Shown: piece by piece, positions 38,239-39,822 of the stretch
How the letters are laid out: each line of letters begins with the position of its first letter
Position numbering within the stretch: the first letter of the stretch is position 1
Source: a virus
Lineage: Duplodnaviria; Heunggongvirae; Uroviricota; Caudoviricetes
IMG/VR virus record: IMGVR_UViG_2718218304_000001
Span: 50,160-114,159 of that record
Length of the DNA: 64,000 nucleotides
Strand: one strand, 5' to 3'
The notes under the pieces: generated by a model
What the model was told of the DNA's origin: nothing
The model's database searches: none
The model's input: the letters and a program-made list of their open reading frames with translations, nothing else
Position numbers and translations under genes: made by a program

Positions 38239-38390
38239 TTTTGCGCTGAAAAAAAGTGTTGCTAGGATGTTAGCAAGCTATGGTTAAGAACGTCTGCCGT
38301 AATTGTCTATCACAGCGTTGAGCGGTCTGGTTTATGTTAGCGGAGTCTTAATCTGGGTGATTAAAAGGCCAAACCGCTCAACGCTGTGTC

Positions 38391-38477
38391 TGGCGGAGAG
38401 TAATGGAATCGAACCATCATCGCTTGCGCAATGGGACGGTTTTCAAGACCGCTTGAGCACCATGCTCCCTACTCTCC
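38391..38477 (-). tRNA. tRNA-Ser (anticodon TGA), type II with long variable arm
   Basis: Hand-folded: acceptor GGAGAGT/ACTCTCC, anticodon arm GCGGT-CTTGAAA-ACCGT, T-loop TTCGATT, encoded CCA. Confidence 0.75.
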
Positions 38478-38797
38478 AGCTATTGTGATGGTCGGTGCTG
38501 AACTCCGACACAGGGTTGTAGCAAGCCCCGCAAAGCGCGCACTACTGTAGTTGCGGCACATCAGCCTGTGCATTCATCACAACGGTAAGATCACTACCTT
38601 TCGACCAGTCATTGTGCACATGAACGACGATTAACCGTAATGATCTTATCGTTGTGTTGTGAAGCCAGATGCTTATCTTCTGGTTGCTTCAAAGAGCTGC
38701 ACTTCCTCACAACGGTAAGAGCACTGGTCTGACTCTATCGATTTACGGGCTTGTGGGTCAGTATCGCCGATTCGCCCAATGCTCTTACCTGTTGTGT

Positions 38798-38874
38798 TGG
38801 TGCCGGTTAACGGGATCGAACCGCTGACATCCTGCTTACAAGGCAGACGCTCTACCAACTGAGCTAAACCGGCA
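38798..38874 (-). tRNA. tRNA-Thr (anticodon TGT)
   Basis: Hand-folded: acceptor GCCGGTT/AACCGGC, D-arm GCTC-AGTTGGTA-GAGC, anticodon loop CTTGTAA, T-loop TTCGATC, CCA. Confidence 0.8.
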
Positions 38875-38877
38875 ATT

Positions 38878-38964
38878 TGGTGGGGAGTGATGGAGTCGAA
38901 CCACCCGAGTCGCAATGACAGTAGATTTACAGTCTACCCCGCTGCCCCTACGGACTAACTCCCC
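38878..38964 (-). tRNA. tRNA-Tyr (anticodon GTA), long variable arm
   Basis: Hand-folded: acceptor GGGGAGT/ACTCCCC, anticodon arm GTAGA-CTGTAAA-TCTAC, T-loop TTCGACT, CCA; D-arm pairing less clear. Confidence 0.7.
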
Positions 38965-38969
38965 TAAAT

Positions 38970-39044
38970 TGGCGATGGTGGGTGGATTCGAACCACCGAC
39001 CAGTTGGTTAACAGCCAACTGCTCTACCGCTGAGCTACACCATC
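38970..39044 (-). tRNA. tRNA-Asn (anticodon GTT)
   Basis: Hand-folded: acceptor GATGGTG/CACCATC, D-arm GCTC-AGCGGTA-GAGC, anticodon arm GTTGG-CTGTTAA-CCAAC, T-arm GGTGG-TTCGAAT-CCACC, CCA. Confidence 0.85.
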
Positions 39045-39822
39045 AATTCAGCACTGCCAGTATTTATTACTCAACAGTGCCAATCGCGACGGTTTAGTTT
39101 CTGCCAGGAAACGCACCGCTACTTGCACTTTTCGTTAGTGCCAGACGCTTTCGACTTCGCTCAATAGTAGAAGGCAAAATCTTTAAGTAGATGATGTTTC
39201 TGAGGACAGCACCTACTTTGTAATTTATACAATGTGATGTATGGAATCATTTGTTGTGAAAACAGGCACCAATGGCAACAGTGGTTAAACCTACACAACA
39301 ATCCTGTCTTCACAACGTTGAGGCCACTACTCCGATTGAATGTTTGCCCAACATGTTACATATCAACGCTCGCCGGTATCTCTGTGAATAGAACCTTAGA
39401 ATTGATAAAAATGTAATGGCCTCAACGTTGTGTGCTGGCTAACCATACCAGCCGGGCTACGTCGCCGCTTTTTAACCCAGTATAAACGACATAATTGAAC
39501 AAAATGACGTAACAGGATGGGCGGTCAGTGGCTAAGAATCCGGGAGTCATATGGAGTTGAAAATATACCAACCGCCCATTCTGTTACTTCATCGGAGGGA
39601 ACATGAATGTTCCCTCCTGCGTTCTGCAATCACACTCGCTCAGTGTGTCCCATTTCGGTAACGAGGCTGGAAACTGACCTCGCTGGTGTTTGGCTTATTA
39701 GGCTACTGCCAGATAGACTTCTTCGTTTGCACTTGTATTTAAGTTCAAACAGTCGCGTCTCAACGAAAACAAAGTCATCTTATACATAAAAGATAAGTAA
39801 GTAAATACTTATCACCATGTTT

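What the first reader, a model, noticed from the sequence alone, without database searches (positions are those of the whole stretch)
38312..39430. tRNA cluster (Ser-Thr-Tyr-Asn) interspersed with a family of four long perfect inverted repeats sharing CACAACG termini, plus an 11-bp perfect hairpin
Perfect inverted repeats (approximate): CACAGCGTTGAGCGG / CCGCTCAACGCTGTG (38312-38388), CACAACGGTAAGATCACT / its complement (38578-38657), CACAACGGTAAGAGCACTGG / its complement (38708-38797), CACAACGTTGAGGCC / GGCCTCAACGTTGTG (39300-39430). Stems are 15-19 bp and loops 45-100 nt. A further perfect hairpin GGAGGGAACAT-ga-ATGTTCCCTCC lies near 39591-39614. About 750 bp next to the tRNAs (39060-39820) lacks convincing ORFs. 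Candidates: processing signals or stable small RNAs of the tRNA operon, a repeated mobile hairpin element, or recombinase sites.
Basis: seen in the sequence. Interest (0 to 1): 0.5.

Follow-up and report, generated by a model that had tools for sequence, protein, structure and literature searches.

The report
Conserved spacer hairpins in phage tRNA operon
The four inverted repeats are real and belong to a widespread, unannotated family of 20-base-pair RNA hairpins that sit right at the ends of tRNAs and tRNA-shaped small RNAs in the non-coding RNA operons of many enterobacterial phages, most likely as processing or spacer signals.

Summary
There are four hairpins, E1-E4, plus a diverged fifth. 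All lie on the minus strand with the four tRNAs. Each has a 20-21 bp stem, CACARC/GYUGUG termini and a 38-82 nt loop.

I call the family H. It has 205 sites and 85 distinct sequences in the DNA I collected. Carriers are P1-like and SSU5-like phage-plasmids, lambdoid prophages, a T1-like phage and a Taipeivirus phage, all from Enterobacterales.

- **RNA-level selection:** G.U outnumbers A.C 54 to 1 in the sense orientation. The strand inferred from pairing alone matches the nearest tRNA at 146 of 147 sites. 14 of 21 stem pairs show changes on both sides.
- **Stems versus loops:** stems are conserved and loops are not.
- **Position:** H starts 0-3 nt after a tRNA's CCA. Its last six bases are reused by the closing helix of the next domain, often an STnc100-like cloverleaf.
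- **Annotation:** no Rfam family or PGAP feature covers H.

Best reading: H is a punctuation and processing hairpin, with RNase III and/or RNase P as the inferred enzymes, in a modular non-coding RNA operon. This is untested.

The "ORF-free" stretch also holds a tmRNA-like tag segment, ANEEVYLAVA**.

The parts
38311..38388 (-). Hairpin E1 (H family, 78 nt). It has a 20-bp stem and a 38-nt loop. It starts 2 nt after the CCA of tRNA-Ser and is the last module before the terminator.
   Evidence: z = -9.65. The same 78-nt element follows tRNA-Ser in dozens of related contigs.
38578..38656 (-). Hairpin E2 (H family, 79 nt). It has a 20-bp stem with one A.C mismatch and one U.G wobble.
   Evidence: It is absent from phage Cyrano.
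38708..38796 (-). Hairpin E3 (H family, 89 nt, with a bulged A after CACAAC). It starts 1 nt after the CCA of tRNA-Thr.
   Evidence: It is the positional counterpart of the P1 hairpin at L001 2828-2914, with the same stem and an unrelated loop.
39311..39432 (-). Hairpin E4 (H family, 122 nt). It has a 20-bp stem and an 82-nt loop with conserved ACAGAG and AUCSG islands. It lies about 267 nt upstream of tRNA-Asn.
39504..39592 (-). Fifth, diverged H-like hairpin with 22-nt arms. Arms are conserved and the loop is not.
   Evidence: (I2). It occupies the same position, after the tmRNA-like segment, as the H hairpin in P1, ZCKP8 and P01.
39594..39617 (-). 11-bp perfect hairpin. SSU5 and pJN2-26 carry a different hairpin sequence at the same place, so the stem is kept by compensatory change.
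   Evidence: (I13).
38482..38583 (-). TL-a module, a cloverleaf-shaped RNA related to STnc100. It has a 9-bp closing helix (GUUGUGAUG/CAUCACAAU), a first hairpin (GCACA-GGCUGA-UGUGC) and a T-arm-like hairpin. Its first 6 nt are the last 6 nt of the E2 3' arm.
   Evidence: consensus structure with 8 compensatory pairs.
38658..38712 (-). Short spacer domain between E3 and E2. It is closed by UUGUGAGG/CUUCACAA and again reuses the 3' end of E3.
   Evidence: It is conserved in P1 and Klebsiella relatives.
39253..39316 (-). Domain after E4, closed by the helix UUGUGAAGACAGG/CCUGUUUUCACAA, which reuses the 3' end of E4.
   Evidence: (I6).
38391..38477 (-). tRNA-Ser(tga).
38798..39044 (-). tRNA run of Asn(gtt) 38970-39044, Tyr(gta) 38878-38964 and Thr(tgt) 38798-38873, separated by 4-5 nt.
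39647..39740 (-). tmRNA-like mRNA-like segment. The tag-like frame at 39730-39695 reads GCA AAC GAA GAA GUC UAU CUG GCA GUA GCC UAA UAA, which is ANEEVYLAVA**.
   Evidence: The homologous segment draws weak tmRNA-family hits in ZCKP8, P1 and pJN2-26 and in P01; SSU5 aligns across the segment but gave no tmRNA-family hit.
38213..38232 (-). Intrinsic terminator of the array (GGGGC-UUCG-GCCCC followed by U6).
   Evidence: Read directly. It is conserved downstream of E1 in relatives. The scan missed it because the stem extends into the U tract.

Best explanation
The hairpins are RNA elements transcribed with the tRNAs on the minus strand. They belong to one family, which I call H.

**Anatomy of H.** Each has a 20-21 bp helix. 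The outer 7 bp are conserved (CACAACG/CGUUGUG). An A-U, U.G, U-A step is conserved at stem positions 16-18. The 31-120 nt loop is poorly conserved.

**Role in the operon.** H acts as punctuation in a modular, polycistronic non-coding RNA operon. The operon reads: tmRNA-like segment, H, domain, tRNA-Asn/Tyr/Thr, H, domain, H, STnc100-like cloverleaf, tRNA-Ser, H, terminator.

**Proposed mechanism (inferred, not shown).**
1. H sits on the last tRNA of a run, where no downstream RNase P site exists. It supplies a double-strand-specific endonuclease site, RNase III being the candidate enzyme. That cut leaves the tRNA with a short trailer for exonucleolytic trimming back to CCA.
2. The 3' half of the cut stem (...CGUUGUG) then pairs with the NNNCACAAC strand at the far end of the next domain. 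This closes that domain into its acceptor-like helix.
3. Where a true tRNA follows, RNase P would cut inside the H 3' arm.

**Module turnover.** The conserved CACAAC boundaries also act as short direct repeats, at which whole modules are gained and lost.
For: **Shown: the family is real and widespread.**
- The pattern scan of viral contigs gave 89 loci. A wider search found 205 sites and 85 distinct sequences.
- In a scan of one genome per species, only Enterobacterales hits have full stems. The other roughly 25 hits are at chance level, with 11-15 of 20 positions paired.

**Shown: selection acts on the RNA strand.**
- In 41 oriented unique stems I counted 750 Watson-Crick, 54 G.U and 1 A.C pairs.
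- The strand chosen by pairing alone equals the strand of the nearest tRNA at 146 of 147 sites.

**Shown: covariation.**
- 94.8% of cells are paired and 14 of 21 pairs changed on both sides. No shuffle of 500 reached these values, and slid controls gave about 37% paired.

**Shown: position rule.**
- H lies within 5 nt downstream of tRNA-Ser 48 times, tRNA-Asn 26 times and tRNA-Thr 20 times. It overlaps the tRNA's terminal CA in the Asn cases.
- It overlaps the first 3 nt of the downstream tRNA-Arg in L037 and of a tRNA-like gene with a long insertion in L014.

**Shown: the stem is the conserved part.**
- Arms are 75-100% identical between relatives. Loops are 51-67% identical, which I judge to be near what unrelated sequences would score; I ran no control for this.

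**Shown: a dual-use 3' arm.**
- The last 6 nt of H plus the next 3 nt find a 9 of 9 complement 40-220 nt downstream in 33 of 57 cases, against 17% in shuffles. The three variable bases covary.
- P1 shows a coordinated three-way change: CGUAAC, GUUGCG and CGCAAC.
- The two folds of E2+TL differ by only 3.7 kcal/mol.

**Shown: transcription context.**
- In P1 the hairpins lie between the C1-controlled Pban promoter and ban.
- In the window a terminator follows E1.

**Supporting the enzyme inference.**
- 20-22 bp is the size of an RNase III substrate.
- The published distal box is UA/UG and the proximal box is GC, W, AU, W (PMC1540722). H has U-A and U.G at positions 18 and 17, G-C at 14 and A-U at 11.
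- An RNase III site that releases a tRNA is known for metY-nusA (reference list of PMC5371410).
Against: - There are no expression or end-mapping data for any member. Cleavage by RNase III or RNase P is inference only.
- I could not verify the register and orientation of the box match. Proximal-box position 3 would be G-C, not A-U. Natural RNase III sites match the consensus poorly anyway.
- Some tRNA runs in relatives end without an H, for example after trnI in P1 and after Arg-Met in ZCKP8. H is therefore not obligatory for tRNA 3' maturation.
- E4-type loops keep short sequence islands (ACAGAG, AUCSG), and E1 loops keep AAGACUCCGC. The loops are therefore not entirely free.
- Family members were selected for at least 18 of 20 paired positions. 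This inflates the percentage paired.
Confidence: 0.5

Rival explanations
1. The hairpins are themselves the product. Under this reading they are stable small RNAs released by tRNA-processing enzymes, in which the constant 20-bp stem is a nuclease-resistant scaffold. The variable loop would then carry the function, for example antisense or kissing-loop pairing, or a decoy for a host factor or defence nuclease.
For: - The near-blunt 20-bp stems would resist exonucleases.
- Loops are replaced wholesale between relatives while stems stay the same, like exchangeable cargo.
- E4-type and E1-type loops keep short conserved islands.
- The loop of P1 hairpin H1 contains a T-arm-like GGGUUCGAAUCCC.
- The neighbouring modules are sRNA-like (STnc100).
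- From my own knowledge: phage T4 carries two stable RNAs of unknown function inside its tRNA cluster.
Against: - Loops are the least conserved part, at 51-67% identity.
- RNAalifold finds no shared structure inside them.
- A perfect 20-bp helix is expected to be cut by RNase III rather than to persist.
- I identified no target.
Confidence: 0.22
2. The hairpins are selfish palindromic repeats, of the miniature inverted-repeat or REP/ERIC kind. Under this reading they spread among phage tRNA arrays, and RNA-level constraint only keeps them harmless when transcribed.
For: - They have terminal inverted repeats with variable interiors.
- They are present or absent between close relatives. The Thr-Ser interval is 8 nt in Cyrano, 213-224 nt in some relatives, and holds one or two hairpins in others.
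- Blocks are bounded by CACAA direct repeats.
- The family occurs in unrelated phage types.
Against: - They are never seen outside co-oriented non-coding RNA arrays. 146 of 147 sites are on the tRNA strand.
- I saw no flanking direct repeats of the target-site-duplication kind at E1-E4 (read).
- No transposase is associated.
- The 54:1 G.U to A.C bias and the three-way covariation with the next domain's closing strand imply function in RNA.
- There are at most about five copies per genome.
Confidence: 0.15
3. The repeats act at the DNA level. Candidates are recombinase or integrase sites, attC-like folded single strands, replication or packaging signals, or protein operators.
For: - A tyrosine integrase gene lies about 1 kb away, at 36263-37366.
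- The geometry resembles integron attC sites, with 70-120 bp imperfect palindromes ending in ...AAC and GTT...
- G.T wobble is also tolerated in single-stranded DNA hairpins.
Against: - The termini do not fit RYYYAAC/GTTRRRY, there are no extrahelical bases, and one search shows only generic Phage_integrase domains; I did not test specifically for the integron (IntI) type.
- The family occurs in a virulent T1-like phage and a Taipeivirus phage.
- Strand asymmetry follows tRNA transcription, which a DNA-level role has no reason to do.
- The exact abutment to tRNA ends and the reuse of the 3' arm in RNA helices are unexplained by DNA-level roles.
Confidence: 0.05

Closest known systems
RNase III processing hairpins in polycistronic transcripts (phage T7 R1.1-type sites, the lambda N-leader site, rRNA operon processing stems, the metY-nusA site that releases a tRNA)
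   Same: - A helix of about two turns placed between functional RNAs of one transcript.
- A position directly after a tRNA, as in metY.
- Flanking sequences that pair to delimit a mature RNA, as in rRNA stems.
- A U-A/U.G step like the distal box.
   Different: - Here the helices are uninterrupted and enclose long variable loops.
- They share a strongly conserved terminal sequence.
- They form a multi-copy family spread over many phages.
- Their 3' end is reused by the next domain's closing helix.
- Cleavage is untested.
STnc100 / PasD prophage sRNAs (Rfam RF02076)
   Same: - The modules that follow H have the same core as STnc100. That core is a UGGUG...CACCA closing helix, then AAU plus a first hairpin, and a last hairpin abutting the 3' strand.
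- One copy passes the Rfam threshold (53.6 bits in phage P01). The P1 copy scores 33 bits.
   Different: - This concerns the neighbouring module, not the hairpins.
- The window's own copy (38482-38583) gives no Rfam hit at E<=10. It belongs to a sister subtype with GCGCA-GRCUGA-UGCGC as its first hairpin.
Stable RNAs inside the phage T4 tRNA cluster (species 1 and 2), and the tRNA-linked pre-miRNA hairpins of murine gammaherpesvirus 68
   Same: Non-tRNA structured RNAs are co-transcribed with viral tRNAs, butt-joined to them and freed by tRNA-processing enzymes. This comparison rests on my own knowledge and was not tested here.
   Different: - There is no sequence relation.
- The T4 species are tRNA-like.
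- The MHV68 hairpins feed a eukaryotic miRNA pathway.
Enterobacterial intergenic palindromes (REP/BIME, ERIC) and miniature inverted-repeat elements
   Same: - Imperfect palindromes of 70-130 bp.
- Transcribed.
- Variable presence between strains.
   Different: - H is confined to phage non-coding RNA arrays and is always co-oriented with tRNAs.
- It has few copies per genome.
- It has a constant 20-bp stem and shows covariation with neighbouring domains.
Bacterial Y RNA-like RNAs (YrlA, Rfam RF02553)
   Same: - A long terminal stem carries a tRNA-derived upper part. P1 hairpin H1 has a T-arm-like hairpin in its loop.
- YrlA-type RNAs also occur in phage tRNA arrays; this point rests on my own knowledge.
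   Different: - No YrlA hit falls on any H. The only weak hit in P1 lies on the tRNAs themselves.
- H has no bulged Ro-binding helix.
- Most H loops lack tRNA features.

Membership tests
RNase III substrate | A double-stranded helix of about 20-22 bp (two turns). | tested here: met
   The stems have 20-21 contiguous pairs in all members. Positions 1-20 are paired in about 95% of cells.
RNase III substrate | Distal box UA/UG and proximal box GC, W, AU, W at the right distance from the cut (PMC1540722). | tested here: inconclusive
   Stem positions and commonest pairs:
- Position 18: U-A in 46 of 48.
- Position 17: U.G in 23 of 48.
- Position 14: G-C in 37 of 48.
- Position 13: A-U in 30 of 48.
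- Position 11: A-U in 48 of 48.
- Position 12: G-C in 47 of 48, where A-U is preferred.

I could not verify the register and orientation of the boxes because the paper's figure is not held.
RNase III substrate | Cleavage in vivo or in vitro that leaves 2-nt 3' overhangs. | not testable with these tools
   No RNA end data are available here.
tRNA (Rfam RF00005) or tRNA-like | A match to the tRNA covariance model or a cloverleaf fold. | tested here: not met
   cmscan at E<=10 and ARAGORN find only the four tRNAs. Nothing falls on E1-E4.
YrlA / Y RNA-like (RF02553) | A match to the covariance model, that is a long stem with a Ro-binding bulged helix plus a tRNA-like domain. | tested here: not met
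   There is no hit in the window at E<=10. The P1 hit (25.6 bits against a threshold of 69) lies on tRNA-Thr and tRNA-Asn, not on a hairpin.
STnc100 (RF02076), for the module next to E2 | A score at or above the Rfam gathering threshold of 47 bits. | tested here: not met
   The window's TL gives no hit at E<=10. Relatives score 33.4 bits (P1), 14.8 bits (L016) and 53.6 bits (P01). The shared architecture is shown.
Miniature inverted-repeat transposable element | Terminal inverted repeats flanked by a target-site duplication. | tested here: not met
   Inverted termini are present. Reading the flanks of E1-E4, I saw no direct repeats of the target-site-duplication kind; I did not test this computationally.
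Miniature inverted-repeat transposable element | Insertions in many unrelated sites and in either orientation. | tested here: not met
   146 of 147 sites are co-oriented with the nearest tRNA, and every site I examined lay inside a non-coding array.
Integron attC site | R''/R' boxes RYYYAAC and GTTRRRY, extrahelical bases, and an integron integrase nearby. | tested here: not met
   The termini are nCACAAC and GTTGTGn, and the stems are fully paired. The nearby integrase gave only generic Phage_integrase domains, and I did not test specifically for the IntI type.
tmRNA, for the segment at 39647-39740 | A tag reading frame with a resume codon and stop codons in an mRNA-like domain. | tested here: met
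   The frame GCA AAC ... UAA UAA encodes ANEEVYLAVA**. The same frame is kept in five other phages with mostly third-position or conservative changes.
tmRNA, for the segment at 39647-39740 | A tRNA-like domain (acceptor stem with G3.U70, T arm, CCA) and a score above the model threshold. | tested here: not met
   ARAGORN calls no tmRNA. Rfam scores are 12-25 bits against thresholds of 47-84. I found no alanine-type acceptor stem.

The most novel reading that the evidence does not exclude
The hairpins would be the processing punctuation of a previously unrecognised kind of phage "non-coding RNA operon". This operon is shared by P1-like and SSU5-like phage-plasmids, lambdoid prophages, a T1-like phage and a Taipeivirus phage.

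It strings together exchangeable tRNA-shaped RNAs: real tRNAs, STnc100-like cloverleaves, and a tmRNA mimic that keeps the tag frame but lacks the tRNA-like domain. Together these would manipulate host translation, ribosome rescue, or tRNA-targeting defences.

The conserved hairpin, with its dual-use 3' arm, would be a folding and processing switch that releases each module.
Probability: 0.2. Interest if true: 0.8.

Novelty: new variant of a known kind. Interest (0 to 1): 0.6.

Why it matters
- **Scale of the gap in annotation.** The 43-nt junction between a hairpin and the next module is in 605 of 5,426 complete E. coli genomes, and the E2-E3 segment is in 712. In every record listed in those two calls (55 shown of about 1,350), PGAP annotates nothing on the hairpins themselves; the only overlapping features are a neighbouring tRNA-Thr and one hypothetical protein. 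No Rfam family covers the hairpins.
- **Likely false genes in P1.** In the P1 reference genome the same DNA is annotated as two opposite-strand proteins, Upl and Plp, which are probably artefacts.
- **A testable explanation.** If the hairpins are processing signals, they explain how phages mature the last tRNA of a run and how they release prophage sRNAs of the STnc100/PasD type from long untranslated early transcripts.
- **A practical marker.** The hairpin gives a simple sequence handle for finding such non-coding RNA arrays.
- **An unreported element.** These arrays include a tmRNA-like tag segment that I did not find described in the searchable literature.

Tried and rejected
- **Rfam.** I searched the window region and related loci. 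No family covers the hairpins. Hits to miRNA models are artefacts of long perfect stems.
- **DicF.** P1 annotates a "dicF-like region" upstream. The window gives no DicF hit, and its alignment to the P1 stretch is poor.
- **boxA/nut-like antitermination site.** Some 3' arms read GUGCUCUUAAC and are followed by a 5-bp hairpin, which resembles boxA plus boxB. I rejected this because the boxA-like bases covary freely, E1 and E4 lack them, and they are buried in a 20-bp helix.
- **Y RNA, attC and transposable-element membership.** See the membership tests.
- **TL as the tRNA-like domain of a split tmRNA.** The module has no G3.U70, no CCA and a non-canonical T loop.
- **Scoring stems with the in vivo RNase III matrix.** The supplement of PMC6212723 is not held. 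The figure with the substrate sequence in PMC1540722 is not held either.
- **Literature.** Nine searches, including the literal sequences of the hairpin, the junction and the tag, found no description of these elements.
- **Promoter scan.** The scan found no sigma-70 consensus in 38100-40200 and missed the evident terminator.
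Full report
**1. What is there**

The window is an SSU5-like phage-plasmid. Over the 1.65-kb query it is 97% identical to Escherichia phages CMS-2020a and Cyrano. Over a 323-nt query it is 100% identical to a plasmid of E. coli CP53.

All four tRNAs are on the minus strand: Ser-tga, Thr-tgt, Tyr-gta and Asn-gtt. The four inverted repeats are real:

| Hairpin | Coordinates |
|---|---|
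| E1 | 38311-38388 |
| E2 | 38578-38656 |
| E3 | 38708-38796 |
| E4 | 39311-39432 |

Read on the minus strand, each is a 20-21 bp helix that begins CACA(A/G)CG and ends CG(U/C)UGUG. Loops are 38-82 nt.

The single arm mismatch in each element is a U.G wobble at stem position 17 on the minus strand. On the plus strand it would be a C.A mismatch.

Minus-strand folds are far more stable than shuffles, with z from -4.3 to -9.7. The terminal motif is enriched five-fold over shuffles. A fifth, diverged hairpin with 22-nt arms lies at 39504-39592, and the 11-bp hairpin is at 39594-39617.

**2. It is a family**

A pattern scan of viral contigs returned 89 loci. A relaxed search of everything fetched gave 205 sites and 85 distinct sequences.

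Carriers include P1-like and SSU5-like phage-plasmids, lambdoid prophages (mEp460, an Stx2k phage), the T1-like Klebsiella phage ZCKP8 and the Taipeivirus phage P01.

In a scan of one genome per species, only Enterobacterales hits have full stems: Rahnella, Pantoea, Erwinia, Ewingella and one MAG. The other roughly 25 hits have 11-15 of 20 positions paired, which is what chance predicts.

The E2-E3 segment occurs in 712 of 5,426 complete E. coli genomes, and the hairpin-to-next-module junction in 605. In the records listed by these two searches PGAP annotates nothing on the hairpins themselves. The only overlapping features are a neighbouring tRNA-Thr and one hypothetical protein.

Rfam has no matching family.

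**3. It is selected as RNA on the tRNA strand**

- Among 41 oriented unique stems there are 750 Watson-Crick, 54 G.U and only 1 A.C pair.
- When the strand is chosen only by which strand pairs better, it agrees with the nearest tRNA at 146 of 147 sites.
- On an arms-only alignment of 48 distinct members, 94.8% of cells pair and 14 of 21 pairs show changes on both sides. No shuffle of 500 reaches these values, and slid controls pair at about 37%.
- Members were picked for at least 18 of 20 paired positions, so the percentage paired is partly built in. The clear gap between real members (17-20 pairs) and chance matches (11-15 pairs) argues that the family is nonetheless discrete.
- Arms are 75-100% identical between relatives. 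Loops are 51-67% identical and are sometimes replaced outright. E4-type loops keep only short islands such as ACAGAG and AUCSG.

**4. Position rule**

H starts 0-3 nt after the CCA of the last tRNA of a run. I counted this for Ser 48 times, Asn 26 times and Thr 20 times. After tRNA-Asn it shares the terminal CA.

In L037 its last three bases are the first three of tRNA-Arg. In L014 they start a tRNA-like gene with a long insertion. Between tRNAs of one run there is no H.

In P1 the hairpins lie between the C1-controlled Pban promoter and ban, so transcripts that reach ban from Pban would have to cross them. There they are hidden under the opposite-strand ORFs upl and plp. In the window a canonical terminator follows E1, at 38213-38232.

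**5. What follows each hairpin**

Except for the terminal E1 type, the last six bases of H (GUUGUG) plus the next three are complementary to a strand NNNCACAAC 40-220 nt downstream.

- 33 of 57 distinct cases have 9 of 9 pairs, against 17% in shuffles. The three variable bases covary, for example GCC with GGC, UCA with UGA and GUU with AAC.
- P1 shows a three-way coordinated change across the H 5' arm, the H 3' arm and the downstream strand.

The enclosed domain is often a cloverleaf-shaped module. It has a 9-bp closing helix, then AAU, then a hairpin GCGCA-GRCUGA-UGCGC. A variable middle and a T-arm-like hairpin abutting the 3' strand complete it.

RNAalifold recovers this structure with 8 compensatory pairs. 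The window copy is 38482-38583.

A sister subtype is STnc100. It scores 53.6 bits in P01 and 33 bits in P1.

For E2 plus its module, the fully closed hairpin and the fully closed cloverleaf differ by only 3.7 kcal/mol. The two helices cannot both be complete.

**6. Modularity**

The Thr-Ser interval is hypervariable among close relatives. Cyrano has only ACACAATT there. That is what a deletion between the CACAA at the start of E3 and the CACAA at the end of the cloverleaf would leave.

**7. Mechanism (inferred)**

A constant two-turn helix is what a double-strand-specific enzyme measures. That helix is conserved while its loop is not, and it sits exactly where a tRNA run lacks a downstream RNase P site.

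RNase III is the obvious candidate:
- The published determinants are a UA/UG distal box and a GC, W, AU, W proximal box (PMC1540722).
- H has U-A and U.G at positions 18 and 17, G-C at 14 and A-U at 11, but G-C at 12.
- I could not check the register.
- An RNase III site that frees a tRNA is known for metY-nusA (cited in PMC5371410).

After a cut, the leftover 3' half-arm could close the next domain. Where a true tRNA follows, RNase P would cut within the arm.

None of this is shown, and I found no end-mapping data.

**8. Rivals**

- The hairpins may be stable sRNA scaffolds with functional loops. The poor loop conservation argues against this.
- They may be selfish palindromes. The strict co-orientation, the wobble bias and the covariation with neighbours argue against this, although block gain and loss is real.
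- They may be DNA-level sites, which is the least likely reading.

**9. By-products**

The "ORF-free" stretch is conserved non-coding RNA. It contains a tmRNA-like segment whose frame encodes ANEEVYLAVA**.

The same frame is kept in five other phages:

| Phage | Tag |
|---|---|
| SSU5 | ANEDTYLAVA |
| pJN2-26 | ANDNQYLAVA |
| ZCKP8 | ANEEMYLAVA |
| P01 | ANDNTFLAVA |
| P1 | ANDDLMMVAA |

Sub-threshold tmRNA-family hits fall on the homologous segment in the window, P01, ZCKP8, P1 and pJN2-26, but not in SSU5. ARAGORN finds no tmRNA, and I found no tRNA-like domain.

A recent tmRNA database paper describes a tag-less phage tmRNA. In the passages my term search returned, it does not mention this converse form (PMC11915505).

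**10. Verdict**

The family appears to be undescribed: it is absent from Rfam and from all nine literature searches.

It is a new variant of a known kind, namely processing or spacer hairpins in polycistronic stable-RNA transcripts. It sits inside a wider and more interesting modular RNA operon.

Noticed in passing
window 39647-39740 (tag frame 39730-39695, minus strand): There is a tmRNA-like mRNA-like segment here. Its frame GCA AAC GAA GAA GUC UAU CUG GCA GUA GCC UAA UAA encodes ANEEVYLAVA**, which resembles the E. coli SsrA tag ANDENYALAA.

The frame is conserved in SSU5, pJN2-26, ZCKP8, Taipeivirus P01 and P1. The segment always lies just upstream of an H hairpin. No tRNA-like domain was found, ARAGORN is negative and Rfam hits are sub-threshold. 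I did not find it described in the searchable literature.
   Followed up: partly
window 38482-38583 (minus strand): A cloverleaf-shaped module related to STnc100/PasD sits between E2 and tRNA-Ser. It has a covarying closing helix, a first hairpin with the conserved loop GRCUGA, and a T-arm-like hairpin. It is unannotated and gives no Rfam hit at E<=10.
   Followed up: partly
L001 (phage P1 NC_005856) 2376-2945: The annotated P1 genes upl and plp lie on the strand opposite to the tRNAs. They overlap three H hairpins and two cloverleaf modules. The homologous DNA in the window has no intact ORF, and the listed RefSeq P1-like plasmid records annotate nothing there. They are probably not genes.
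   Followed up: partly
window 37465-37497 and 39240-39251: There is a near-perfect 16-bp palindrome, AATGATTCCATACATA / TAGGTATGGAATCATT, next to the integrase and repressor region. A half-site, TATGGAATCATT, recurs between hairpin E4 and tRNA-Asn and is conserved in relatives. This may be an operator and an internal promoter of the tRNA array.
   Followed up: no
L002 (phage Cyrano) 3279-3288 versus window 38478-38797: Cyrano lacks E2, E3, both intervening domains and tRNA-Tyr. Its Thr-Ser spacer, ACACAATT, looks like a deletion between the CACAA repeats that bound the block. The Thr-Ser interval is hypervariable among SSU5-like relatives.
   Followed up: yes
L001 2828-2914 (P1, minus strand): The loop of the P1 hairpin after tRNA-Thr contains a canonical-looking T arm (GAGGGUUCGAAUCCCUAC) and a D-arm-like hairpin. 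It is therefore a mini tRNA-like top on a 20-bp stem. The window's E3 has the same stem but an unrelated loop.
   Followed up: no
L094 (Klebsiella phage P01, Taipeivirus) 800-3500: This phage has a non-coding stretch of about 2.7 kb. It holds the tmRNA-like segment, an H hairpin, a cloverleaf module and a bona fide STnc100. Directly after the STnc100, at 3241-3314, is a diverged H-like hairpin that Rfam mis-scores as miRNA precursors. A long tRNA-like sequence ending GCACCA lies near 2320-2455.
   Followed up: no
L014 12885-13008: A 124-nt sequence scores 32.9 bits against the tRNA model. It is a tRNA with a roughly 50-nt insertion. It starts inside the last 3 nt of an H hairpin, and ARAGORN does not call it.
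   Followed up: no
L016 7305-8271 and L092 (mEp460) 2122-2846: In lambdoid prophages the hairpin-cloverleaf modules fill a long untranslated leader of the early-left operon. This lies downstream of the cI-like repressor gene and a pL-like promoter with an operator palindrome, where lambda has nutL and N. I saw no N-like gene.
   Followed up: partly
H 3' arms, e.g. L009 6968-6989; window 38708-38727: Some 3' arms read (G)UGCUCUUA(A/C)C, close to boxA of lambda (CGCUCUUA) and of rrn operons (UGCUCUUUAACAA). They are followed about 12 nt later by a 5-bp hairpin. I judge this a coincidence, because these bases covary freely and are base-paired.
   Followed up: partly
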